Source: Mustelus asterias (taxonomy: Eukaryota). Taken from it: 64,000 nucleotides of DNA. The DNA lies in assembly GCF_964213995.1 (NCBI RefSeq), contig NC_135812.1, forward strand, positions 43,896,001-43,960,000. The letters are read 5' to 3'. The position numbers were made by a program, and so were the translations under genes. The number at the start of each line of letters is the position of its first letter. The first letter of the stretch is position 1. Shown one piece after another: positions 911 to 62,295 of this stretch. A model generated the notes under the pieces. That model was not told the DNA's origin, ran no database searches, and saw only the letters and a list, made by a program, of their open reading frames with translations.

Positions 911-1675
911 ACATAGAAAATAGAACATAGAACATTACAGCGCAGAACAGGCCCTTCGGCCCACGATGTTGCACCGACCAGTTAAAAAAAAACAAAAAAA
1001 AAAAAACTGTGACCCTCCAACCTAAACCAATTTCTTTTCGTCCATGAACCTATCTACGGATCTCTTAAACGCCCCCAAACTAGGCGCATTTACAACTGAT
1101 GCTGGCAGGGCATTCCAATCCCTCACCACCCTCTGGGTAAAGAACCTACCCCTGACATCGGTTCTATAACTACCCCTCCTCAATTTAAAGCCATGCCCCC
1201 TCGTGCTGGATTTCTCCATCAGAGGAAAAAGGCTATCACTATCCACCCTATCTAAACCTCTAATCATCTTATATGTTTCAATAAGATCCCCTCTTAGCCG
1301 CCGCCTTTCCAGCGAAAACAATCCCAAATCCCTCAGCCTCTCCTCATAGGATCTCCCCTCCATACCAGGCAACATCCTGGTAAACCTCCTCTGCACCCTC
1401 TCCAAAGCCTCCACATCCTTCCTGTAATGTGGGGACCAGAACTGCACACAGTACTCCAAGTGCGGCCGCACCAGAGTTGTGTACAGTTGCAACATAACGC
1501 TACGACTCCTAAATTCAATCCCCCTACCAATAAACGCCAAGACACCATATGCCTTCTTAACAACCTTATCTACTTGATTCCCAACTTTCAGGGATCTATG
1601 CACACATACACCTAGATCCCTCTGCTCCTCCACACTATTCAAAGTCCTCCCGTTAGCCCTATACTCAACACATAC
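911..1675 (-). mobile_element. Young 5'-truncated CR1 LINE (ORF2 C-terminus intact, 1022-1678)
   Basis: LYTTLVRPHLEYCVQFWSPHY...LERRRLRGDLIE...FFTQRVVRDWNALP, with a (TTCTATG)-type tail near 911-930. Confidence 0.95.
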
Positions 1676-1840
1676 CATCCACCCTCACTGCTTTCCATCT
1701 CCCTCCCAGTGTTGGACAAACATCTCCCACCTTTAGCTTTGACAAAGGGTCACCCCGACCCGAAACATCAGCTCCCCCCCCTCCCCACAGACGCTGCCAG
1801 ACCCGCCGAGACCCTCCAGCACCTTTTCTTTTGGTTACAG
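1676..1840 (+). mobile_element. Penelope-like element terminal fragment, T>C hypermutated
   Basis: ttgacaaagggtc...gacccgaaac hammerhead-like core followed by acaga(c)gctgccagacc(c)gc(c)gag; homologous to 22195-22290 and 47178-47280 on the minus strand. Confidence 0.75.
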
Positions 1841-14962: not shown

Positions 14963-15501
14963 TTTAGGATATAGTTTGAGGTCGAAAAGTTGAGCAGCAA
15001 CAGGTACCAGCTATCAGGTGCTCTAGGTTTATCGATATCACTCACTGGGAAACCTGGTGGACCAACTTTTGTGGAATTTCTGGGGCATGCTCTTCATTGC
15101 TCACTCCCTTAGTCTCCATTTGGTAAATTCATCTCTTTCTCCTTTATTCTCCAACACCCTCAGCAGAATCATAGTACGAAATGTTAAAACCTGCATGTTG
15201 CGTTAGATTGAACCGGTATCTGTGTTTTCAAATGTTTCACAGGAGAAAGCACTGTGAACAAGTCTGACGGGTGGAACTGCAGTACGCCTCTCCTTCTCTC
15301 GCTTTTGTGGCCATACCAGAGATTGCCTCTATATATGCACACAAAAGGTGTATTTCTATTAGCAATGTTCACAAGCGCAGATGTCTCAAAGTACTCGACT
15401 GCCAACTAAGTTCTTTTAGAGTATGGTCACTGATGTAAACAGGCAGAGGGAGGGTAGGTTCTGTCCTTCGTTCTTCCAGTAATTCAAAGAAAGGGGTAAT
15501 T

Positions 15502-16528
15502 ATGAGTGGGAGGCCAGTTTGTTGCTGTCGGTGTCGGATGTGGGAGTTCATGGAGTCGCTTAGCCTCCCGGAAGTCCATATCTGCGCCAGGTGCGTCGAA
15601 CTGCAGCTCCTGAGACACCGCGTTAGTGAACTGGAGCTGCGGCTCGATGACCTTAGTCTAGTCAGGGAAAATGAGAAATTAATAGAGAGAAGTTACAGGC
15701 AGGTCGTCACACCAGGGCCACGGGAGGAAGACGCGTGGGTCACGGTTAGGAAGGGTAAAGGTCACGTACCAGAGAGTACCCCGGTGGTTGTCTCCCTTAA
15801 CAGTAAGGGATGGGTGTCAGACGGGAGAGAGGAGGGGAGAGAGCAGTCAGTGATGGGATCCCCTGTGGTTGTCCCCCTCCAGAATAAGTATACCGTTTTG
15901 GATACTGTGGGGGGAGGTGGGGAGGGGGGAGATGACCCTCCAGGGGTAAGCCACGGTGACCGGGTCACTGGCATGGAGTCGGGCTCTGTAGCTCGGAAGG
16001 GAAAAAGGGGGACTATGAGAGCAATAGTAGTGGGGGATGCAACAGTTAGAGGCACAGACAGGCGGTTCTGTGGGCACGAACGAGACTCCAGGATGGTAGT
16101 CTGCCTCCCTGGCACCAGGGTCCTGGATGTCTCTGAGCAGGTCGGAAGCATCCTAAAAAGGGGCAGGTAACCAGACAGACGTCATTGTCCACATTGGTGC
16201 AAATGACGTAGGCAGAAAGAGTAGGGAGATCGTGAGAGAGCAATTCAGGGAGTTGGGTAGTAGGCTGAAAAGCAGTGCCTCTAGGGTAGCGATCTCTGGA
16301 CTACGCCCAGTGCCACAAGCTAGTGAGGCTAGGAACAGGGAGATTGTACAGCTGAACGCGTGGCTAAAGGACTGGTGCAGGAGGGAGGGTTTCAAATTCG
16401 TGGATCACTGGGAAGTCTTCAAGAGAGGATGGCACCTGTACAAGAAGGACGGGTTACACCTAAAGTGGAGGGGCACGAATATCCTAGCTGGGAGTTTTGC
16501 TAGTGCGGTTCGGGTGGGTTTAAACTAA
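15502..16528 (+). pseudogene. CR1 ORF1 (Cys-rich/zipper N-terminus plus SGNH esterase), one frameshift near 16160
   Basis: CCCRCRMW...HICARCVELQLL; VGDATVRGTDRRFCG; CLPG; HIGAND; DGLH. Confidence 0.9.
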
Positions 16529-19455
16529 TGTGGCAGGGGGGTGGGGATCAGAACAATAGGTCAATAAGCTTAGAGGCTGGGGACAAGGTTGGAACCAAGA
16601 CAAGGCTAGCTAAGAGGAAGAGCATTCTGGCGGAGGATGACATCAGTGGGCCTGGAGGTCTGGAGTGCATCTGCTTCAATGCAAGGAGCGTCACGGGCAA
16701 GACAGATGAGCTTAGAGCCTTAATGCTTGCGCGGAACTTGGATGTGGTTGCAGTGACGGAGACTTGGTTAAAAGAAAGACAGGACTGGCAGCTGAATATT
16801 CCAGGGTATAAGTGTTTTAGGAGAGACAGAGGAGAGGCTAGGAGAGGTGGGGGAGTAGCAATGCTGGTAAGGGAGCATATTACTGCGGTACAGAGGGTGG
16901 ACAATTTTGAAGGATCAGGTAACGAGTCACTGTGGGTGGAGCTCAGAAACAGGAAGGGCGCAGTCACTATGCTGGGGGTATACTACAGGCCTCCCAACAG
17001 CCCACGGGAAGTTGAGGAACGGATAAGTAAGGAGATTCTGGACAGGTGCAGAAAAAATAGGGTTGTTATAGTGGGCGACTTTAATTTCCCTCACATAGAC
17101 TGGAAATCGCTTAGGGCTGGGGGCCTGGACGGGGAAGAATTTATAAAATGCGTACAGGAAGGTTCTTTGGAGCAATATGTTGACAGTCCAACTAGAGAGG
17201 GGGCTATACTGGACCTAGTACTGGGGAATGAGCCCGGTCAGGTCATCAAAGTTTCAGTGGGGGAACATGTGGCAAATAGTGACCACAATTCTGTAAACTT
17301 TAGGATAATAATGGAAAAAGATGAGTGTTGTCCTCTGGGTAAGGTGCTGAATTGGGGGAAGGCTAACTACAGCTGGATTAGGCAGGATTTGGTGGCTGTT
17401 GATTGGGAAAGGCTGTTCGAGGGTAAATCCACACCTGGCATGTGGGAGTCTTTTAAGGAGCAGTTGATAGGACTGCAGGATAGACATGTGCCTGTAAAGA
17501 GGAAGGATAGGAAAGGTAGGATTCGAGAGCCGTGTATAACCAGTGAAATTGTGGGTCTAATCAAAAAGAAAAAAGAGGCATACATGAGGTCCAGGCAGCT
17601 AAAAACAGATGGAACACTGGAGGAATACAGAGAAAGTAGAAAAGAACTCAAACAGGGAGTTAGAAGGGCAAAAAGGGGTCACGAAATGTCCTTGGCTGAC
17701 AGGATTAAGGAGAATCCCAAGGCATTTTATACATATGTTAGGAACAAGAGGGTTGTTAGGGAAAGAATCGGACCTCTCAGGGACAAAGGAGGGGAATTAT
17801 GCTTAGAACCAAAGGAAATAGGCGAGATCCTAAACGAATACTTTGCATCAGTATTCACAAAGGAGAGGGACATTTTGACTGGTAGTGTCTCAGAGATGTG
17901 TTGACCCGTTAGAAAAAAATCTCAATTACAAGGGAGGAAATGTTAGGTTTTTTAGGAAACATTAAGACAGACAAATCCCCAGGGCCAGATGGCATCTATC
18001 CTAGACTCCTCAGGGAGGCAAGAGATGAAATTGCTGGGCCTCTAACAGAAATCTTTGTCTCTTCACTGGACACAGGTGAGGTCCCAGAGGATTGGAGGAT
18101 AGCAAATGTGGTCCCGTTATTTAAGAAGGGTAGCAAGGATAACCTGGGTAATTATAGGCCGGTGAGCTTGACGTCCGTGGAAGGGAAATTGTTGGAGAAG
18201 ATTCTTAGTGATAGGATATATGCGCATTTAGAACTGAATAATCTCATTAGCAATAGAGAGCATGGTTTTGTACGAGGGAGGTCATGCCTCACAAATTTGG
18301 TTGAGTTTTTTGAGGAGGTAACAAAAACGATTGACGAGGGAAGGGCTGTGGATGTCGTCTATATGGATTTTAGTAAAGCGTTTGACAAGGTCCCTCATGG
18401 CAGGCTGGTGCAAAAGGTTAAATCTCACGGGATAAAAGGTGAGCTAGCTAGATGGGTGGAGAACTGGCTTAGCCATAGAAGACAGAGGGTATCAGTGGAG
18501 GGGTCTTTTTCCAGTTGGAGGTCTGTGACGAGTGAAGTTCCGCAGGGCTCTGTACTGGGACCTCTGCTGTTTGTGATATATATATATATAAATAAATAAA
18601 AATGATTTGGAGGAAGATGTAGCTGGTGTGATCAGTAAGTTTGCGGATGACACAAAGATTGCTGGAGTTGCGGATAGTGATGAACATTGTCAAAGAATAC
18701 AGCAGGATATAGATAGGCTGGAACATTGGGCGGAGAAATGGCAGATGGAATTTAATCCAGATAAATGCCAAGTGATGCATTTCGGTAGATCTAATGTAAG
18801 GGGGAGCTATACAATAAATGGCAGAACCATCAGGAGTATAGACACAGAGGGACCTGGGTGTACAAGTCCACAGATCCTTAAAGGTAGCAGCACAGGTGGA
18901 GAGGGTGGTCAAGAAGGCATATGGCATGCTTGCCTTTATTGGACGAGGCATAGAATATAAAAGTTGGCAATGATGTTGCGGCTGTATAGAACGTTGGTTA
19001 GGCCACATTTGGAATACTGCGTCCAGTTCTGGTCGCCACACTACCAGAAGGACGTGGAGGCTTTGGAGAGAGGACAGAAAAGGTTTACCAGGATGTTGCC
19101 TGGTATGGAGGGTCTTAGCTATGAGGAGAGATTGGGTAAACTGGGGATGTTCTCCCTGGAAAGACGGATGATGAGGGGCGACCTAATAGAGGTGTATAAA
19201 ATTATGAAGGGTACAGATAGGGTGAACAGTGGGAAGCTTTTTCCCAGGTCGGAGGTGATGAACACAAGGGGTCACAGGTTCAAGGTGAGGGGGGCAAGGT
19301 TCAACACAGATGTCAGGGGGACGTATTTTACACAGAAGGTGGTGGGGGCCTGGAATGCACTGCCAAGCAAGGTGATTGAGGCGGACACACTGGGATCGTT
19401 TAAGACTCATCTAGATAGCCACATGAACAGACTGGGAATAGAGGGATACAAATGA
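16528..19455 (+). pseudogene. CR1 ORF2 (APE endonuclease plus reverse transcriptase), several frameshifts
   Basis: FNARS, VAVTETW, YRPP, GDFN, SDH; KSPGPDG, NYRPVSL, DFSKAFD, PQGSVLGP, FADDTK; breaks near 17910, 18590, 18845 and 18965. Confidence 0.95.
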
Positions 19456-22194: not shown

Positions 22195-23215
22195 GAAATA
22201 CCCAAGAGGCTGGAATCTGAAAAAAAGAACAGAGGATGCTGGAAAACTCAGATCTAACAGCATCTGTAGGGAGAGAAAGCAGAGTTAACATGGAGTTCAT
22301 TTGGCTCTTTGTCTGAACTGGAGAAAATGTGTTACATATTAAAATGTAGCTGTGAGATATCACAACAAGATGTAGCGACTTTAAAGAGCAAAAGGCAGAT
22401 GGCTTGGTGTGGGATGATTTGCATTGACACAATACATGTATGGGATATTTTATTAAAGGGTTCAAGATGGAGGAGATAGGTCAATGTTGAGTCCTGAGGA
22501 CTGTAATGTGCATAATCAGATGAGATGCTGCTTTTCCAGCCTGCGTTGGGCTTCACTGGAGCATTGCAGCAGATCAAGGATGGACATGTGGCATGAGAAC
22601 AAGGTGCTGAGTTAAAATGGCAAGCAACAGGAAGGCTGGGGTCATGCTTGAGGACTGAGTGAAGGTATTCCACAAAGCAGTCACCCAGTCTGCATTTAGT
22701 CTCCCCTATGTAGAGGAGATCACATTGGGAGGAGTGAATACAATAGACCAAAATTGAAGGAAGTTCAAGGGAAACACTGCTTAAACTGAAAGGAGTGTTT
22801 GGGACCTTGAACGGTTAAGAGTGAGGAGGTAAAAGGACAGGTGTTGCACCTTCTGCGATTGCAAGGGAAAGCGCCTTTGGAAGAGGATGGGAGTTGGGTG
22901 TGTAGGATGAGTGAACCAGGTGTCACAGAGGGGGAAGTTCCTGTGGAATGCTGACAGGAGAGGAGGTGGTGAGATGTGTTTTGAGGTAGCATCATGCTGG
23001 CATTGGCAGACATTGCGGAGAACGATCCTTCGAGTGCAGAGGCTGGTGGGGTGGAAAGTGAGACTCTATCATGGTTCTAAGAGGGAGGGGAAGGGGCGAG
23101 GGAGAGGTGCAGCAAATAGGTTGAACGTCCTGTCAGCCATAGATCGGAGGAAAACCTTGGTTAAGGAAAAAAGCAGACATGTCGCCAGTTCAAAGAGTTA
23201 CATAATCAGATGAAA
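22195..23215 (-). mobile_element. Penelope-like element, GIY-YIG endonuclease region plus 3' end (degenerate)
   Basis: FPCNRRRCNTC; VYCIHSSQCDLLYIGETKCRLGD..EY; PVACHFN. Confidence 0.9.
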
Positions 23216-28126: not shown

Positions 28127-28260
28127 TGTTGGACTGGTGTGGGCACAGTAAGAAGTCTCAACACCAGGAGCTCTACTCACCTGATGAAGGAGCAGCGCTC
28201 CAAAAGCTCATGATGCCAAATAAACCTGTTGGACTTGAACCTGGTGCAAGACTTCTTACT
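28127..28260. mobile_element. Penelope mini-element (inverted termini) with a mutated hammerhead
   Basis: agtaagaagtct / agacttcttact inverted; ctgatga...gctccAAAA. Confidence 0.8.
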
Positions 28261-38831: not shown

Positions 38832-39165
38832 GGGCGGCACGGTGGTGCAGTGGTGAGCACTGCTGCTTCACAGCTCCAGGGTCCCGGGTTCGATTCCCGG
38901 CTCGGGTCACTGTCTGTGTGGAGTTTGCACATTCTCCTCGTGTCTGCGTGGGTTTCCTCCGGGTGCTCCGGTTTCCTCCCACAGTCCAAATATGTGCGGG
39001 TTAGGTTGATTGGCCAGGTTAAAAATTGCCCCTTAGAGTCCTGGGATGCGTAGGTTAGAGGGATTAGCGGGTAAATATGTGGGGGTAGGGCCTGGGTGGG
39101 ATTGTGGTCAGTGCAGACTCGATGGGCCGAATGGCCTCCTTCTGCACTGTAGGGATTCTATGATG
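38832..39165 (+). mobile_element. HE1 V-SINE, young, CR1-type tail
   Basis: Nearly identical to 12997-13338. Confidence 0.95.
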
Positions 39166-47617: not shown

Positions 47618-47799
47618 TATGTGGGACTGAGTAGAGTACAAATTATATCAGCGATATCAGAGAAAATATGACCTGCACCTCAGTCTAGTGTTGGTCAGAA
47701 TTGAGTGATGTGGAGATGCAGGTGTTGGACTGGGGTAAACACAGTAAGAAGTCTCACAACACCAGGTTAAAATCCAACAGGTTTATTTGGTAGCAAAAG

Positions 47800-47836
47800 T
47801 CACTAGCTTTCGGAGTGCTGCTCCCTCATCAGGTGA
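47800..47836 (-). ncRNA. Minimal hammerhead ribozyme motif in pLTR
   Basis: UCAC-CUGAUGA-G-GGAG-cagca-CUCC-GAAA-GC-UA-GUGA. Confidence 0.75.
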
Positions 47837-47950
47837 GTGGGAGTTCTGTTCACAAACAGGGCATTTAAAGACACAAACTCAATTTACAAAATAATGGTTG
47901 GAATGCGAGTCTTTACAGGTAATCGGGTAATACAGGTAATACAGGTAATG

Positions 47951-48300
47951 GGTGGCGTGGTAGCACAGTGGTTAGCACTGCTGCTTCACAGCTCCAGGGA
48001 CCTGGGTTCGATTCCCGGCTTGGGTCACTGTCTGTGTGGAGTTTGCTCATTCTCCTCGTGTCTGCGTGGGTTTCCTCCGGGTGCTCCGGTTTCCTCCCAC
48101 AGTCCAAAGATGTGCGGGTTAGGTTGATTGGCCGTGCTAAAAAAAAAAATTGCCCTTAGTGTCCTGAGATGTGTAGGTTAGAGGGATTAGTGGGTAAATA
48201 TGTAGGGATATGGGGGTAGGGCCTGGGTGGGATTGTGGTCGGTGCAGACTCGATGGGCCGAATGGCCTCTTTCTGTACTGTAGGGTTTCTATGATTTCTA
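47951..48300 (+). mobile_element. HE1 V-SINE inserted into the Penelope pLTR
   Basis: Full head, V-domain and CR1-type tail. Confidence 0.95.
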
Positions 48301-48708
48301 AATCTTAAAGGTACAGAAAATGTGAGTGGATAGAGGGTTAAGCACAGGTTAAAGAGATCTATATTGTCTCCAGCCAGGACAGTGAGATTTTGCAAGCCCA
48401 GGCAAGTCGTGCGGGTTACAGGTAGTGTGACGTGAACCCAAGATCCCGGTTGAGGCCGTCCTCATGTGTGCGGAACTTGGCTATCAGTCTCTGCTCAGCA
48501 ACTCTGCGCTGTCATGTGTCGTGAAGGCCGCCTTGGAGAACACTTACCTGAAGATCAGAGGCCAAATGCCCGTGACCGCTGAAGTGTTGGGGAATTAGAT
48601 TAAAACTAAACGTCACGTAAGATTACCTGTAAAGACTCACATTCCAACCATTATTTTGTAAATTGAATTTGTGTCTTTATATGCCCTGTTTGTGAACTGA
48701 AATCCCAC

Positions 48709-48745
48709 CCACCTGATGAAGGAACAGCGCTCCGAAAGCTAGTGG
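48709..48745 (+). ncRNA. Minimal hammerhead ribozyme motif in pLTR
   Basis: CCAC-CUGAUGA-A-GGAAC-agc-GCUCC-GAAA-GC-UA-GUGG. Confidence 0.7.
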
Positions 48746-49559
48746 CTTTGTCTACCAAATAAACCTGTTGGTCTTTAACCTGGGGTTATGAGACCTCTTA
48801 CAGAATTGAGTGCACAGGCAAGATTGGAGACAACTCCTAGGTTGAACACTTTACTATATATAGGTGCGTAGCTTTAGTAATTAGTTTTTGTAATTAATAA
48901 ATACGAACAGTTGATCAACTTAAGACTACAAAAGCTTCATTATGACTTACCAAATGGTGTCTGACACCTTCTAACATGGTGGCAGCAAATGAAAAAACAC
49001 AAAACCTTGCAAAAAATGCAGATTAAAACTAAACTTCACGTAAGACTAAAGAAAAATTCAAAGAAGCATTCTGACCCTGAAGAAAATTGCCAGGCAAAAG
49101 CTTTAAAGAAAGGATTGGAAGCTGAAAATAGAAATTTAAAATTCCTCACTGTAGCAGGAAACCGCATGGGATCCCTTGGAAGTCTAGCTTCAATTCTCAG
49201 AGTGCAGAGTCAGCAGACCTAGCAGGGGTGAGCTAAAGCCTTTAAATTCCAGGATGAAGCAAGTCCTGAGGAATTTTAAAATAATTCAGTGGTCAAAAAT
49301 TGCTGTTTAAAATTCGTGTCAGAAAAAACAAATTCCTGAGTCGGCGCCTAGACACGCTTCTGCGTTCACTCTGACAAAGAAAATGAATTGATTTGGAAGA
49401 ATTGCCATGAAAGGATCAGCTTTTAAGACCTTTTAAGGCCAAGATTCGATACATTTAGTGAAGCAGAGTTCTGAAACCGAGAAGTCAGTGGCTGGTGATT
49501 CAAGCAGCTATTGTTTTTTTCAATGTTAAGCATGAGGGCTGTTGCAATGGCAGCCCACT

Positions 49560-51405: not shown

Positions 51406-53051
51406 GTGTCTTTTGCAGCAGAATCTTTGGGCATAGAGACATCAGAGTGTCCAATATTCAAATCGAAGAAACAAAGATTGTAAAATCATCTTCTGCCAAA
51501 TGCAAAACGAAACTTGAAATTATACAGAAGGTTATGGTCCACTCCTTTTAACTAAAAGGTACATAGTTTGAATTGCCTGATAATTTGAAAATTGTTTGCA
51601 TTAAATTTGTACTTTGCTGTGTTATTTACATTGTTTATTTCAAATGACTGGATCATTTCATGTTTCAATGTAAAGAAATGGCCTTGACTTTTTATGACTA
51701 GATGGTGATAAATGGTAGCCCTGAATAAATGTGTCTGAAATTCCTCTAACTGCTATCTTTGTGAAATGTTTGCAGGCTTAAAATAAAATAGTAGATGATA
51801 CAACTTCGGACAAATGCATTAAAAGTTAATACCTAACAATTCCACAGTGTGACTTCAAGGCCAAGGAGATAAAGTGCAAAATAACCTTATCTTATGGAGG
51901 CAGGTGAGTAAGGTGGTGAATACAGATACGCAATTGGACAATAACATATGAAAAAATGCTTACAAAACAGTTGTTTGTTGCAATGAAGGTTAGTGACAAT
52001 GTAGATGTTACGTTTCTGTGGATCATGAATCCAGATGAATGGAGACAATCAGTTTCTTCACAGATACAATGCCAAAATAGAATTGTAGAATGGATCCCTG
52101 ATGCTTCCATAGGCTATTGTAGAGAAAATTGTCCCAGAAAAGTGCACATGATCTTGAGTTTCAGTCTATAGTTAAAGATATCTCACTAGTGTGGAAGTGT
52201 ATTGGAAACTAAGCCTTCCAAAGGTGCAGGCAGTTGATATCATTTTGTTATTACTATTAATATCAAGCCAATAACAAAAGATAATTAAACATTTGTATCT
52301 CTGGGGCTGGGGTCTTCTCTGCCCCCCCCCCCCCCCCCTGCCTCCCCACCCCCTCTCCCCCCACCGCCCAGCTTCCACCGAACCCGATGGCCAGACCAGC
52401 AAGTCTGGAACCAGGACCTCCACTCCATCAGCCCCCAACCCCTCTGACCCAGAGAGCTGCGACCGCCTGCAGGCCCCAAACACTCCCTCCACTCCCCCCT
52501 TCTATAATCACCCCACACTCCTAAAAATCAACTCCCGCTGCCTAAAAATCACTAACACTGCTCTGCTAAATTTACTTGCAGGTCTAGGGATCCTCCAACC
52601 TCCGAAGGAAGACCCCGACCTGGCAATGGCCAGAAGACCCCAACATGTGTACCCAGACAACAACACATCCGGACCCCAGAGATGTCATCGACCCATCCAC
52701 GCTGGAGCGTGGTCTAAACGTCCTCCGATCTCCGAAACCAAACCACAGCCCGGCAGCAACCTGGAACGCCCAACCACACAGATCCACATTGACACAGAAG
52801 CTGCAAACAAGGCAGCAAATCCTCCATCCACACACCAGCGAGAGTGAAGAACCTCATTAGATGCACCTATACCCTTAACACCGCATACTACTCTCACCGT
52901 CTCCCAGGCCTGAAAAGAAGCAGTCACGCCAAGAAGCATGGAAAACGTGCAGGCCTGCAGGTGAGAGTGAAACAACACAGTCCTAAGGCTCCCCTCCCCA
53001 GCTTACTCCTAGCAAATGTCCAAACTCTGGAAAACAAGCTAGACAAACTTA

Positions 53052-53547
53052 TGATGTGGAGTCGCTGGCGTTGGACTGGGGTAGGCACAGTAAGTAGTCT
53101 CACAACACCAAGTTAAAGTCCTGGGCTCGCGCATTGCTCAAATTGTACACATGCACAGTGCTGAGTTGGAGCTCGGCCTCATGCTCTGGGGATTTAACAG
53201 CCGCGGCGCGTGACCCCCAACAGCCGCAGCGCGCGACCCCCAACAGCCGCAGCGCGCGCCTGCGTGGGGCTTGGAGTCTCCCCCTCCTGAGACAGGAGTG
53301 TGAGACAACTCACACTTCTTTAACCTGTGCTTAACCCTTTCTCCACTCACATTGTCTGCATTTGTAAAGACTTGATTACCTATTAAGACCCGCATTCCAA
53401 CCATTATCTTGTAATTGAGTTTCTGTCTATATATGCCCCTGTTTGTGAACTGAACTCTTCACTCACCTGATGAAGGGACAAACCTCCGAAAGCTCGTGCT
53501 ACCAAATAAACCTATTGGATTTTAACTTGGTGTTGTGAGACTAGTTA
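53052..53547 (+). mobile_element. Non-autonomous Penelope-derived element inserted in Rex1
   Basis: 13-bp TSD ctagacaaactta at 53039-53051 and 53548-53560; inverted termini; pLTR with hammerhead; no ORF homology. Confidence 0.9.
53463..53498 (+). ncRNA. Minimal hammerhead ribozyme motif (weak stem II)
   Basis: UCAC-CUGAUGA-AGGGACAAACCUCC-GAAA-GC-UC-GUG. Confidence 0.6.
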
Positions 53548-56500
53548 CTAGACAAACTTAAAGCCAGACTCACTTTCCAAAGAGAACTGAGGGACTGCTG
53601 TGTATTCTGTTTCATGGAGAGATGGCTCACTCCTGCTTCACTGGACTGTGCCCTACAACCAGAGGGCTTCTCAATCCACTGAATGGACTGTACAGCGGCC
53701 TCAGGCAAGGCTGGGGGAGGTGGGGTCTGCCTTCTAATCAACACCTGGTGGTGCCTAGACATAGCTGCACTGACAAGTTTCTGCTCCTTGGACCTCTAAC
53801 GCTAAAATGCCAGCCCTACTATCTTCCGCGGGAGTTCATCTCTGTTACCCTGACAGCAGTTTATATCCTACCCCACGCGGATGTGAAGACTGCGCTGGAC
53901 GAAATATACAACACTACAAATAACCTTGAGATGAAACATCCCGAGGCCTTGTTCATCATGGCTGGGGATTTCAATCAAGCCAAGCTCAAGAGCGTTCTAC
54001 CAATGTATCATCAACACGTCTCCTGTTCCACTAGAGGCCCAAACATCCCAGACCACTGCTACACAAATATCAAACATGCCTACCGCTCCATCGCCCACCC
54101 ACATTTTGGTAAATCACACCACAAGGTTGTGCTCCTGCTCCCGGCTTACAAGCAAAAACTGAAATGGGAGAATCCATCAAAGAAAGTCGTGCAATGTTGG
54201 TCTGAGGAATCGGATGATCTCCTACGGGACTGCTTAGAGTCAGTAGACTGGTCAGTATTTAAAAACTCTGTGACCAGCCTGAACAAGTACGCCACTGCAG
54301 TAACTGACTTTATTAGTAAGTGTGTAGAAGACTGTGTGCCAAAGAAGCAAATCCGTGTGTTTTCCAATCGGAAACCATGGATGAACAGGGATATCCACTG
54401 CTTGCTGAAGTCCAGGTCTGAGGTGTTCCAGTCAGGCGACACTGACCTATACAGGAAAACCAGATATGATCTACAGAAATCCATCAAAAATGCCAAAAGA
54501 CAGTACCGGACCAAGCTAGAATCCCAGGCTAGCCACCTGGCTCCTGCCATCTATGACAAGGTCTGCAAGACATAACAGGCTACAAGATGAAGAAAGGTAA
54601 ATTCGCCGGCTCCAATGCTCCCCTCCACAATGAGCTCAATACATTCTATGCCCGTTTTGAGCAAGAGGTCAGTGAGAGCACGCTCTCCATCCCGGAAGCC
54701 TCGGATGAACCGGTATCCAAGGTCACCATTGCCGATGTCAAAGCAGCCTTCTCAAAAGTCAACCCACGAAAAGCAACTGGCCCAGATGGGGTACCCAGAC
54801 GAGCACTCAGGTCCTGCGCGGACCAGCTTCAACCTCTCTTTACACCAATCTGAGGTCCCTACCTGCTTCAAGAAAGCGACCATCATCCCGATATCAAAGA
54901 AAAGCCAGGCAGCGTGCCTTAATGATGATCGGCCGGTGGCTCTGACATCCATCATTCTGAAGTGCTTCGAAAGGTTAGTCATGGCACAAATCAATTCCTG
55001 CCTCCCAGACTGCCTGAGTCCACTACAGTTTGCCTATTGCCGCAACAGGTCCACAGCAGATGCCATCTCCCTGGCCCTACACTCAACCCTGGAACACCGA
55101 GATAACAAAGACACCAATGTCAGACTCCTATTTATAGACTACAGATCAATCTTTAACACCATCATTCCTACGAGACTCATCTCCAAACTTCGTGGGCTGG
55201 GGCTTGGCTCCTCCCTCTGCAACTGGATCCTAGACGTCTTAACCCACAGACCGCAGTTAGTAAGGATAGGCAATAACACCTCCTTCACGATCATCCACAA
55301 CACCGGTGCTCCGCAGGCTGTGTCCTCAGCCCCTTATACAGCCTCCTTATACACCTCTGACTGGCCAAATTCCCCTCCAATTCAATTTTCAAGTTTGCTG
55401 GTGACATCACCGTTGCGGGTTGGATCTCAAACAATGATAAGACGGAGTACAGGAAAGAGCTAGAGAATCTGGTGAACTGGTGAGACAACAATAATCTTTG
55501 TCAACAAAACGAAGGAGATAGTCGTCGACTTTAGGAAGTGTAGTGGAGGACATACCCCCGTCTACATCAATGGGGACGAAGTAGAAATGGTCGAGAGCTT
55601 CAAGTTATTAGGTGTACAGGTCACCAACAACCTGTCCTGGTCCATTCAGGCAGACGCTATAGTTAAGAAAACCCATCAGTGCCTCTACTTTCTCAGGAGA
55701 TTAAGGAAATTTGGCGTGTCCACTATAACTCTCACCAATATTTACAGATGCACCACAGAAAGCATTATTTCTGGTTGGCATGGCTCCTGCTCTGTCCAAG
55801 ACCACATGAAACTACAAAGGGCCATGAATGAAGCCCAGGATATCACTCAAACTAGCCTCCCACCCATTGACACTGTCTACACTTCCCACTGTCTTGGAAA
55901 AGCAGCCAGCATAATTAAGGACCCCATGCATCCCAGACATACTCTCTTCCATCTTCTTCCATCGGGAAAAAAACACAAAATTCTGTGATCAGGTACCATA
56001 CGACTCAAAAACAGCTTCTTCCCTGCTGCCATCAGACTTTTGAACGGACCTACCTTGCATTAAGTTGATCTTTCTTTCCATCCTAGCTATGACTGTAACA
56101 CTACATTCTGAATTCTCTCCTTTCCTTTCCTATATACTGTATGCTTTGTATAGCGCGCAAGAAACAGTACTTTTCACTGTATACTAATACATGTGACAAT
56201 AATAAATCAAATCAAATAAAGATGGGAAAGTAAGCATACATTACTTTCATGCATGGTACTGAAATGTGAAACCAGTAGTGTGGGCTGTGATGGAAAGTGC
56301 TTGTTGCATTGAAAAGAGTCTCCAATTTCTGATTTATGGGCTAGTTACAAAAGAAATGCTCACACTCGTTAGTGATCCCACAGACTGTATGAACATTGTG
56401 ACAGTTGTGAAACCAAAACCAACACCATCCTTCATTCCGTGGGCTAGACTTTGACTTTATGCATTAGTGTAAAATAAATGATAGTGAAACAGCAGCTGGC

Positions 56501-56724
56501 TTTATATCTGTCTTTATTCGCAAAAAATGGAAATAAAAGTCAGGAGCGATGTGTCGCTGGCTACTAATTTGATATTGCTCTTTTCACTTACCAATCAATG
56601 TTAAGATCTACCCCCGTGCAAGACAGTCACTTCCTGTCTGAAATCAAGATATAAGGAAGCCAAAATTTTCTGCAACTCAACATTGTCAGAACCGAAACCA
56701 TCCTGTTTAATAACTGTTCTAAAC

Positions 56725-57897
56725 TCTGCTCCATCTCCATTGCCCCACACTCCAGAGCCCTTTTCCAGTGCTCCACACTCCAGAACTCACTCCATTGCTC
56801 CACATTCCAGAACCATCTCCATTGCCCCACACTCCAGAGCCCTTTCCAGTGCTCCACACTCCAGAACTCACTCCATTGCTCCACATTCCAGAACCATCTC
56901 CATTGCCCCACACTCCAGAGCCCTTTCCAGTGCTCCACACTCCAGAACTCACTCCATTGCTCCACATTCCAGAACCCTCTCCATTGCCCCACACTCCTGA
57001 ACCCTTCTCATTGCTCCATACTCCAGAACTCACTCCATTGCTCCACACTCCAAAACCCTCTCCGTTGCCCCACACTCCAGAACTCTCTCCATTGCCCTAC
57101 ACTCTTGCTCCTTCTCCATTGCCCCACACTCCATAACCCTCTTCAATGCTCCACACTCCAGAATCCTCTCCATTACCCCACACTCCAGAACCCTTTCCGT
57201 TGCCCCACACTCCATAACCCTCTCAATTGCCCCACACTCTATAACCCTCTCCATTGCCCCACACTCCAGAACCATCTCCATTGCCCCACACTCCAGAGCC
57301 CTCTCCATTGCCCCACACTCCAGAACCCTCTCCATTGCCCCACACTCCAGAACCCTCTCCATTGCCCCACACTCTATAACCCTCTCCATTGCCCCACACT
57401 CCAGAACCCTCTCCATTGCCCCACACTCCAGAACCCTCTCCATTGCCCCACACTCCAGAACCCTCTCCATTGCCCCACACTCCAGAACCCTCTCCATTGC
57501 CCCACACTCCAGAACCCTCTCCATTGCCCCACACTCCAGAACCCTCTCCATTGCCCCACACTCTATAACCCTCTCCATTGCCCCACACTCCAGAGCCCTC
57601 TCCATTGCCCCACACTCCAGAACCCTCTCCATTGCCCCACACTCCAGAACCCTCTCCATTGCCCCACACTCCAGAACCCTCTCCATTGCCCCACACTCTA
57701 TAACCCTCTCCATTGCCCCACACTCCAGAGCCCTCTCCATTGCCCCACACTCCAGAACCCTCTCCATTGCCCCACACTCCAGAACCCTCTCCATTGCCCC
57801 ACACTCCAGAACCCTCTCCATTGCTCCACACTCCAGAACTCCCTCCATTGCCTCACACTCCAGAACCCTCTCCATTGCTCCACACTCCAGAACCCTT
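56725..57897. repeat. 27-bp minisatellite (CCATTGCCCCACACTCCAGAACCCTCT)n, about 43 units
   Basis: Directly visible; 9-aa periodicity in all the translated frames. Confidence 0.97.
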
Positions 57898-58009
57898 CTC
57901 TACCTACAAAAGTTTATTCTTCAACTGCCCTGCCTTTCCTATATCTGACATTGACCAATACGGTACTTTGGGATTTTTTTATTAAGGGAATTTGATAAAA
58001 ACACAATAT

Positions 58010-59439: not shown

Positions 59440-59725
59440 TTTCATGCTTTTCTTTCTCTCTGTTCTTCTGCCATAATCAGTTACACCTACTCTGGAACCA
59501 TGTTGTCTTTCTTGTCTCATTATCAGTTCCTTTTGCCTTGCAACGTTTTAACAGTTAATTGCTTCTTCCTTCCATCCTATCACAGACTTTCCTTTTTCTC
59601 CTTTCTCAACTCCTTTTTCCTAGATTTGTACTTGCTAAAAAAAATGTTAACCGTCTGATTTCTTTCGGTTCTGATGAAAGGTCACTGTCCCCACATATAT
59701 TGTCTGACGTGCTATAGATTTTCCT
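59440..59725 (+). mobile_element. Old Penelope-like 3' fragment
   Basis: Pyrimidine-rich 3' UTR, then ttctgatgaaaggtcac (hammerhead remnant). Confidence 0.5.
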
Positions 59726-60999: not shown

Positions 61000-62295
61000 T
61001 TTGATTTGATTTATTATTGTCACGTATTATTATGCAGTGAAAAGTATTGTTTCTTGTGCACTATACAGACAAAGCATACTGTACACAGGAAAGGAGAGAG
61101 TACAGAATGTAGTGTTACAGTCATAGCTAGGGTGTAGAGAAAATCGACTTAATGCGAGGTAGGTCCATTGAAATGTCTGATGGCAGCAGGGAAGAAGCTG
61201 TTTTTGAGTCGGTTGATATGTGATCTCAGATTTTTATATCTTTATCCCAACGGAAGAAAGTGGGAGAGAATATGTCCGGTGTGTGTGGGGTCCTGGACTA
61301 TGCTGGCTGCTTTTCCGAAGCAGTGGGAAGTGTAGACAGAGTCAAAGGATGGGAGGCTGGTTTGAGTGATGGACTGGGCTTCATTCATGAGCCTTTGTAG
61401 TTTCTTGTGGTCTTGGACAGAGCAGGAGCCGTACCAAGCTGTGTAACAACCAGAAAGAATGCTTTCTATGGTGCATCTGTAGATGTTGGTGAGAGTTGTA
61501 GAGGACATGCCAAATTTCCTTAGTCTCCTGAGAAAGTAGAGGTGTTGGTGGGCTTTCTTAACTATAGCGTCCGCATGGAGGGACCAAAACAGGTTGTTGA
61601 TGATCTGGACACCTAAAACCTTGAAGCTCTGGGCCATTTCTACTTCGTCCCCATTGATGTAGATGGGGGCATGTCCTCCACTACACTTCCTAAAGTTGAT
61701 GACTATCTCCTTCCTTTTATTGGCATTGAGGGAGAGATTATTGTCATCGCACCAGTTCACTAAATTCTCTTTCTCTTTCCTGTACTCTATCTCATCATTG
61801 TTTGAGATCCACCACCACAATGGTGGTGTCATCAGCAAACTTGAAAATCGAATTGGAGGGGAATTTGGCCACACAGTCAAAGGTATATAAGGATTATAGT
61901 AAGGGGCTGACAACACAGCCTTGCAGAGCACCGGTGTTGCGAATGATTGTGGAGGAGGTGTTGTTGCCTATCCTTACTGATTGCGGTCTGTGGGTTAGGA
62001 AGTCTAGGATCCAGTTGCAGAGGGAGGAGCCGAGCCCCAGGCCAAGAAGTTTGGAGATGAGTCTCATAGGAGTAATGGTGTTAAAGGCTGAGCTGCAGTC
62101 TATGAATAGGAGTGTGACATAGGTGTCTTTGTTATCTAGGTGTTCCAGGGTTGAGTGTAGGGCCAGGGAGATGGCATCTGCTGTGGACCTGTTGCGATGA
62201 TAGGTGTAGTGGATCCAGGCAGTCTGGTAGACAGGAATTAATTTGTGCCATGGCTAACCTTTCAAAGCACGATGGATGTCAGAGCCACCGGACGA
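61000..62295 (-). mobile_element. Rex1/Babar LINE, 3' half
   Basis: WCDDNNLSLN..KE; LYFLRRLRKFG; (AAATC)n tail at 61000. Confidence 0.93.

What the first reader, a model, noticed from the sequence alone, without database searches (positions are those of the whole stretch)
47696..48810. Penelope pLTRs carry minimal hammerhead ribozymes, with stem I pairing preserved between copies
Seen: both arms of the inverted repeat contain CUGAUGA-[stem II]-GAAA-GC-UA. Stem I is UCAC/GUGA in one arm (47800-47836, minus) and CCAC/GUGG in the other (48709-48745), so pairing survives the differences. Stem III is reduced to the palindrome AGCU. Further copies occur at 53463 (CUC triplet) and 28177. A second Penelope family shows related cores (1739-1765, 59671). 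Known: Penelope-like elements carry minimal hammerheads thought to act as dimers. Inference: a self-cleaving shark family in which the inverted layout places a ribozyme on each strand.
Basis: partly seen in the sequence, partly recalled or inferred. Interest (0 to 1): 0.7.

Follow-up and report, generated by a model that had tools for sequence, protein, structure and literature searches.

The report
Penelope hammerheads in a decayed insertion
The two motifs are real but decayed copies of a tiny RNA motif, predicted to cut itself, that is already known from Penelope-type jumping genes; the fresh point lies in a sister branch of the family, where extra copies begin right at the predicted cut, a likely trace of cutting in the living animal.

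Summary
The motifs are real: minimal hammerheads at 47800-47836(-), 48709-48745(+) and 53464-53498(+), against 0.01 per simulated window. They sit in the pseudo-LTR of a Neptune-type Penelope element with at least 171,007 tail copies. This class is known (Cervera & De la Pena 2014).

Relatives carry a U.G wobble (33 of 42), so U-A versus C-G is one single change per arm, and each arm also has a broken stem II pair. True covariation lies between branches (C-G/U-A, 56 of 59 paired). The inverted layout is a known insertion pattern: a 12-bp target duplication, a long tail on one arm only (26 of 28 pairs), cores intact in both arms in only 13 of 28, and a read-through RNA predicted to pair the motifs away. 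The 28177, 1739 and 59671 copies are broken.

Fresh point: in sister branch D, arms starting at the predicted cut outnumber both neighbouring positions (716 vs 285 and 243). No such peak appears in branch C or in a variant of this locus's branch. The scan noted this footprint before on other DNA of this genome. No cleavage was tested.

The parts
47696..47707 (+). left target-site duplication, 12 bp (last 2 bases shared with the element's long end)
47706..47924 (-). left arm: pLTR with the ~40-nt long tail
   Evidence: (86% to full-length element L201)
47800..47836 (-). minimal hammerhead, core intact, stem II pair 5 broken, bulge A>G; predicted cut between 47804 and 47803
47950..48295 (+). dispersed repeat, likely a tRNA-derived SINE, inserted into the left arm
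   Evidence: families D2/D4; weak tRNA hit on the sister copy at 38836 (below gathering score); element sequence is contiguous across it
48300..48589 (-). rest of the left arm: last 57 codons of the ORF (48419-48589, one stop inside) and start of the 3' region
   Evidence: (tblastn 86% to aa 836-892 of the L201 ORF)
48590..48620 (.). head-to-head junction, about 30 bases of filler of unknown origin
   Evidence: no match to L201 element
48621..48801 (+). right arm: 5'-truncated pLTR ending at the short end, no tail
48709..48745 (+). minimal hammerhead, core intact, stem II pair 4 broken; predicted cut between 48741 and 48742
48801..48812 (+). right target-site duplication, 12 bp
53464..53498 (+). 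third minimal hammerhead (CUC triplet, 3-bp stem II left) in a copy at 53302-53549; its head-to-head partner 53051-53121(-) has no hammerhead
28177..28260 (+). family-1 stub with a dead core (G12>A)
1736..1766 (+). degenerate member of a second, ACGU-type motif family; Penelope link not shown
59669..59688 (+). 5' half of a hammerhead-like motif only

Best explanation
47696-48812 is one decayed insertion of a very abundant Neptune-type Penelope-like retroelement, two head-to-head copies of its end between 12-bp target duplications, each carrying the known minimal hammerhead motif, which likely cuts the element's RNA only in intact source copies. SHOWN: the anatomy; full-length relatives of the form pLTR(motif) - 892-aa RT/GIY-YIG ORF - pLTR(motif), period about 3.0 kb, with the predicted cut about 100 nt upstream of the first ATG; covariation between branches; private damage in both arms here. 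INFERRED: the protein nicks both strands about 12 bp apart and primes reverse transcription from both ends, one at the long-tail start and one at the short start, so the inversion is a by-product. INFERRED: the motif is kept by selection on source elements and cuts weakly, as a dimer through the AGCU palindrome or with protein help. INFERRED: most templates are uncut, because most copies keep the whole motif, while in branch D a few percent were cut before copying.
For: Motifs against chance. Genome counts: 171,007 exact tail 29-mers and 15,788 exact core patterns, controls 0. Full-length structure in L201, L204, L212 of 20 fetched loci. RVT_1 in 2 of 2 ORFs, GIY-YIG in 1 of 2; CX4CxxC linker. 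In 59 of 127 tail-anchored copies that also had the upstream flank, stem I pair 1 is C-G 32 / U-A 24 with 56 of 59 paired, and stem II pairs 1-5 are paired in 56-59 of 59. Structure count: 96.4% of cells paired, 0 of 500 shuffles as high, slid controls 29-54%. Branch differences fall at N7, H17, stem I and stem II, not in the fixed core. 26 of 28 head-to-head pairs have exactly one long tail (p 1.5e-6), and 22 of 28 share an 8-15-bp flank duplication against 2 of 200 mismatched partners. PMC11167929 (parts 1-2 read): the anole protein cuts and extends both strands, starts at two sites that define the tail, and its motif cuts only with protein. PMC8557442 and PMC3846280 (passages): inverted copy, one-sided tail and 8-10-bp duplications are the typical pattern. 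Branch D counts 716 / 285 / 243.
Against: No cleavage assay. Covariation rests on only 2 pairs with a change on both sides (219 of 500 shuffles reach that), i.e. a few inherited events. Monomer folds are no better than shuffles in 5 of 6 sequences, and only 1 of 6 minimum-energy folds shows both stems I and II. PMC11167929 found no RNA-seq reads ending at the cut and no need of cleavage for insertion in vitro; PMC4209133 found only low activity in dimers. No cut-site peak in branch C (9 of 100 listed, about 10 expected, hand tally) or in a variant of this locus's branch (3 of 100, hand tally). In the flank-anchored sample 3 of 131 copies start at the cut. Double priming is not proven: fold-back self-priming is proposed in PMC3846280.
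Confidence: 0.85

Rival explanations
1. The inverted pair is functional: a ribozyme on each strand processes transcripts from both directions at this locus.
For: Both cores are intact, and stem I pairs in both arms.
Against: Each arm has a broken stem II pair, and the stem I difference derives from a wobble. The arms are 90.6% identical, with a repeat inserted in one. Of 28 pairs, the core is intact in both arms in 13, one in 6, none in 9. A read-through RNA is predicted to pair 34-35 of 37 motif bases with the other arm. A cis dimer needs same-strand copies.
Confidence: 0.04
2. The motif is kept as a protein-binding, promoter or folding signal and rarely cuts; the excess of branch D starts comes from a polymerase stop or a junction microhomology at that base.
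For: Most copies contain the uncut motif. 20 of 100 listed cut-site junctions read ...CAAAA|G, where the G could belong to either side; moving that share to -1 lowers the contrast to about 1.4x. No peak in branches C and B'. HHR mutants still insert in vitro (PMC11167929).
Against: The partner arm also ends exactly at the cut in 12, 11 and 9 of 100 listed junctions, against 2, 0 and 0 for the +2 register that passes the same filter (hand counts). Four of those insertions are blunt palindromes with both arms starting at the cut. A structural stop would be expected on entering stem I, not on leaving it (inference). The catalytic residues are what is conserved between branches.
Confidence: 0.25
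3. The head-to-head pair forms by fold-back self-priming of one cDNA rather than by priming from both target ends.
For: Palindromic junctions are common; proposed in PMC3846280. Here the long-tail arm is also the longer arm.
Against: Among long elements with an inverted partner, the main arm has the long tail in 4 (L201, L202, L205, L218) and the short end in 9 (7 of the 20 loci left out: 5 without an inverted partner, L203 and L210 too complex or unclear). So neither end is always first. The anole protein extends both strands in vitro (PMC11167929).
Confidence: 0.25

Closest known systems
Minimal hammerheads (min-HHR) in pLTRs of metazoan Penelope-like elements (Cervera & De la Pena 2014, PMC4209133; main text parts 1-3 read)
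   Same: Type I core, extra base between positions 9 and 10.1, G10.1-C11.1 pair, palindromic 15.2-16.2, short helix I, several consensus families per genome, most copies dispersed and truncated, and pairs 100-700 bp apart on opposite strands already noted there.
   Different: No shark is named in the text read, nor in 2 supplementary text files (file 1 not searched, figures not seen). Copy number here is higher: at least 15,788 for one pattern against about 4,000 and 9,000 in coelacanth and Xenopus. Stem II is 5-6 bp. No cut-site truncation analysis there.
Neptune clade of endonuclease-bearing Penelope-like elements, with inverted 5'-truncated copy and one-sided tail (PMC8557442 and PMC3846280, passages read)
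   Same: Single ORF with RT and C-terminal GIY-YIG, CX2-5CxxC linker, partial-tandem pLTRs, inverted copy, tail at one end, short target duplication.
   Different: Clade placed by linker motif only; no tree built, Nematis not excluded. The one-sided tail is quantified here (26 of 28).
Poseidon element of Anolis carolinensis, PAc (PMC11167929, parts 1-2 of 4 read)
   Same: Two reverse-transcription start sites that define the tail; hammerhead near the ORF start; both target strands cut and extended.
   Different: In PAc the cut lies 26 nt inside the ORF; here it lies about 100 nt upstream of the first ATG, and the long tail ends at that ATG. No ends at the cut were found in anole RNA-seq; here one branch shows an excess of DNA copies starting there.
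Non-LTR retrozymes of animals (bioRxiv 10.64898/2026.07.22.740005, passages read; supplements not seen)
   Same: Hammerhead-bearing sequences related to pLTRs; reported in one chondrichthyan genome.
   Different: Those are head-to-tail tandem repeats; this is a dispersed head-to-head insertion.

Membership tests
min-HHR of metazoan PLEs | Core CUGANGA ... GAAA ... UH | tested here: met
   for three window copies; (57 of 59 with an intact 5' core)
min-HHR of metazoan PLEs | Extra base between 9 and 10.1, and G10.1-C11.1 pair | tested here: met
   A in 59 of 59; G-C 52 and G.U 6 of 59
min-HHR of metazoan PLEs | Palindromic 15.2-16.2, no helix III | tested here: met
   GC in 56 of 59; GC 104 and CG 31 of 158 generic hits
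min-HHR of metazoan PLEs | Covarying helices I and II across families | tested here: met
   met between branches, not between the two arms; few independent events
min-HHR of metazoan PLEs | Located in pLTRs flanking a PLE ORF | tested here: met
   L201, L204, L212; window arm contiguous with the ORF end
min-HHR of metazoan PLEs | Self-cleavage as dimer or with protein | not testable with these tools
   indirect only:
EN+ Penelope-like element | Single ORF with RT and C-terminal GIY-YIG | tested here: met
   (RVT_1 2 of 2; GIY-YIG above cut-off in 1 of 2)
EN+ Penelope-like element | pLTRs, inverted truncated copy, one-sided tail, target duplication | tested here: met
Neptune clade | CX2-5CxxC linker between RT and EN | tested here: met
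   residue 754 of the L201 ORF; shared with Nematis per PMC8557442
Neptune clade | RT phylogeny | not tested
   no reference sequences in hand
Non-LTR retrozyme | Head-to-tail tandem units | tested here: not met
   head-to-head pair; neighbours within 4 kb: 28 head-to-head, 6 same-strand, 2 tail-to-tail
PLE (second, ACGU-type motif family) | Motif joined to a PLE ORF | tested here: inconclusive
   no divergent ORF within 1.5 kb in 30 loci; motif family is real (6,787 vs 1,186 control)

The most novel reading that the evidence does not exclude
The genome keeps a fossil record of hammerhead cleavage in living cells. In the branch with a 6-bp stem II, a few percent of insertions were copied from RNA already cut at the ribozyme site, often in both arms, sometimes with the copied end repeated as if the reverse transcriptase ran off and re-primed. 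Branches with the 5-bp stem II show no such record, so natural variants would rank ribozyme activity in vivo.
Probability: 0.5. Interest if true: 0.62.

Novelty: new member of a known kind. Interest (0 to 1): 0.36.

Why it matters
The locus itself is ordinary. The family matters because the role of hammerheads in endonuclease-bearing Penelope elements is stated to be unclear (PMC8557442), and RNA-level evidence was negative in anole (PMC11167929). With more than 170,000 copies, insertion ends can be counted at single-base resolution. The contrast between branch D and branches B'/C gives a direct prediction: D motifs should cut better. The one-long-one-short rule with 12-bp duplications also gives numbers for models of how these elements insert.

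Tried and rejected
Rfam scan: no hammerhead model hit at E<=1. The two-arm 'compensation' was rejected. My first structure count was mis-registered and is void; it was redone. Monomer folding was uninformative. Cut-site peak: not seen in 131 tail-anchored copies (3 at the cut), in branch C (offsets -2..+4 = 6, 24, 9, 22, 14, 9, 16 of 100 listed of 1,108; my rough uniform expectation 12, 10, 10, 19, 17, 14, 17), or in the B' variant (3 of 100 listed of 167). The branch A list was too mixed with other branches to tally. The exact branch of this locus could not be separated from D by a short pattern, so it was tested only through B'. Sequencing runs: no RNA holder listed on record; contigs of 4 runs guessed to be RNA cover the pLTR but cannot show ends or strand, so no claim on expression. 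Literature searches: Penelope+hammerhead (45 papers, 30 listed); with 'shark' (1 paper, whose only 'shark' is the hammerhead simile); inverted/pLTR/tail; truncation at the cleavage site (11 listings, none on this point by title or abstract start); shark genome+Penelope+Neptune. The library lacks most subscription papers and Repbase, so absence from print is not established. Supplements not seen (file 1 and figures of PMC4209133, all of the bioRxiv preprint) may hold shark motifs. No protein homologue search, tree or structure prediction was run.

Full report
OBSERVATION. A scan for the hammerhead core with stems I and II found three minimal motifs in the window: 47800-47836(-), 48709-48745(+) and 53464-53498(+). 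100 resampled windows gave a mean of 0.01. The two arms form a 181-nt inverted repeat, 91% complementary. Rfam has no hit.

ANATOMY. Mapped on a full-length relative (L201), the left copy runs from 48589 to 47706 on the minus strand. It holds the last 57 codons of the ORF and the pLTR with the long tail, and is interrupted by a dispersed repeat at about 47950-48295. The right copy is 48621-48801 and ends at the short end. The same 12 bases flank both sides (47696-47707, 48801-48812), so this is one insertion. Three of 20 long loci show pLTR - ORF - pLTR with a motif in each pLTR. The ORF is 892 aa in the two scanned, with RVT_1 in both and GIY-YIG in one and a CX4CxxC linker, which PMC8557442 gives as the mark of Neptune and Nematis. 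The long tail ends at the first ATG, and the predicted cut is about 100 nt upstream of it. The genome holds 171,007 exact tail 29-mers and 15,788 exact matches to one core pattern; reversed controls gave 0.

THE TWO-ARM DIFFERENCE IS NOT COVARIATION. In this locus's branch (B) the fourth stem I pair is U.G in 33 of 42 held copies, C-G in 7, U-A in 1 and A.G in 1 (the set is partly selected for likeness to the right arm). The left arm thus needs one G>A change and the right arm one U>C change. The family's stem II has five pairs; the right arm breaks pair 4 and the left arm pair 5. The arms differ at 5 of 37 motif positions and are 90.6% identical overall, which fits neutral decay.

REAL COVARIATION LIES BETWEEN BRANCHES. 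I anchored copies on both flanks, so that the motif itself was not selected: 59 of 127 tail copies had both flanks. Stem I pair 1 is C-G in 32 and U-A in 24, paired in 56 of 59. Stem II pairs 1-5 are paired in 56-59 of 59, and branch D adds a sixth pair. N7 and H17 vary freely while the fixed core does not. The structure count gave 96.4% paired cells, 0 of 500 shuffles as high, and 29-54% for slid partners. Only 2 pairs change on both sides, so these are a few inherited events (one search was mis-registered and is void). A second motif family with an ACGU palindrome is real (6,787 vs 1,186 control), but I found no ORF of its own in 30 loci.

THE INVERTED LAYOUT. In 800 kb taken without regard to the motif, 82 tail copies gave 36 neighbour pairs within 4 kb: 28 head-to-head, 6 same-strand, 2 tail-to-tail. 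The core was intact in both arms in 13, one in 6 and none in 9. In a re-count within single records that includes this locus, 26 of 28 pairs had exactly one long tail (p 1.5e-6), and 22 of 28 shared an 8-15-bp flank duplication against 2 of 200 mismatched partners. PMC8557442 and PMC3846280 describe this pattern as typical, and PMC4209133 already notes motif pairs on opposite strands. PMC11167929 shows the anole protein extending both strands from two start sites that define the tail. I infer priming from both nicked target ends; fold-back priming remains a rival. A transcript through this locus is predicted to pair 34-35 of the 37 motif bases with the other arm, so the layout would work against ribozyme folding.

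IS THERE A TRACE OF CUTTING? Copies made from cut RNA should begin at the cut. My first tests were negative: 3 of 131 copies, and no peak in branch C. Earlier notes of the scan reported such a footprint, so I tested other branches. A listing for B/D showed 16 of 100 at the D cut against 9, 5, 6 and 4 at offsets -1, +1, +2 and +3 (hand tally of 100 of 747). Whole-genome counts with matched filters gave 716 at the cut, 285 at -1 and 243 at +1, or 1376, 507 and 433 after correcting for filter pass rates. In the first 100 listings of each, the partner arm ends exactly at the cut in 12, 11 and 9, against 2, 0 and 0 for the +2 register. The 30 loci fetched represent 28 separate insertions at different places, some with the copied end repeated up to the cut. 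Against this: 20 of 100 junctions are ambiguous by one base, and assigning that share to -1 leaves 1101 vs 762 and 433. Only two neighbouring positions were counted genome-wide. The B' variant shows no peak (3 of 100). With D at 24 of 82 copies, the excess is roughly 3% of D copies (my estimate). This locus is not part of that signal: both of its arms hold the whole motif.

MECHANISM. Shown: anatomy, family structure, branch covariation, decay of these arms, and the D excess. Inferred: source elements in partial tandem make RNA with the motif about 100 nt before the ATG; the motif cuts weakly, as a dimer or with protein help (PMC4209133, PMC11167929); most templates are copied uncut; in D some are cut first and the enzyme runs off at the new 5' end.

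NOVELTY AND VERDICT. A new member of a known kind. The cut-site excess was not found in the papers searched, but that library is incomplete. The scan had noted it before on other DNA of this genome; I re-tested it and found it limited to branch D among the three branches I could tally. Papers seen: PMC4209133 parts 1-3 of 4 plus a supplement word search; PMC11167929 parts 1-2 of 4; passages only of PMC8557442, PMC3846280, PMC6155905 and bioRxiv 10.64898/2026.07.22.740005; listings only for the rest. Interest 0.36.

Noticed in passing
window 22332-22814 (-): ORF remnant with a YIGET motif resembling a GIY-YIG domain, not matched by the family-1 protein; possibly another Penelope family.
   Followed up: no
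window 56655-57995: Tandem array of a 27-bp unit, about 40 overlapping copies listed, with open frames on both strands.
   Followed up: no
window 48590-48620: About 30 bases of filler at the head-to-head junction with no match to the element.
   Followed up: partly
window 48738-48752 and L004, L013 etc.: Branch B differs from branch A by what looks like a 7-base duplication of the cut site and the 3' strand of stem I.
   Followed up: partly
L114:6782-6831, L226, L232: Junctions where the copied end is repeated and stops again at the predicted cut, like telomerase-style re-priming.
   Followed up: partly
one search set (L031-L170, window): 23 of 62 apparent 5' ends fall 32-39 bases upstream of the cut, just before stem I; this may be a transcription start, but some are artefacts of branch divergence from my reference copies.
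   Followed up: partly
L061-L090: In the ACGU-type family, homology seems to begin a few bases before the core in most of 30 loci, and several are head-to-head (by eye).
   Followed up: no
window 1022-1684, 15439-19455, 53562-55988, 61242-61967: Remnants of LINE-type reverse transcriptase and endonuclease genes, judged by eye from the translations.
   Followed up: no
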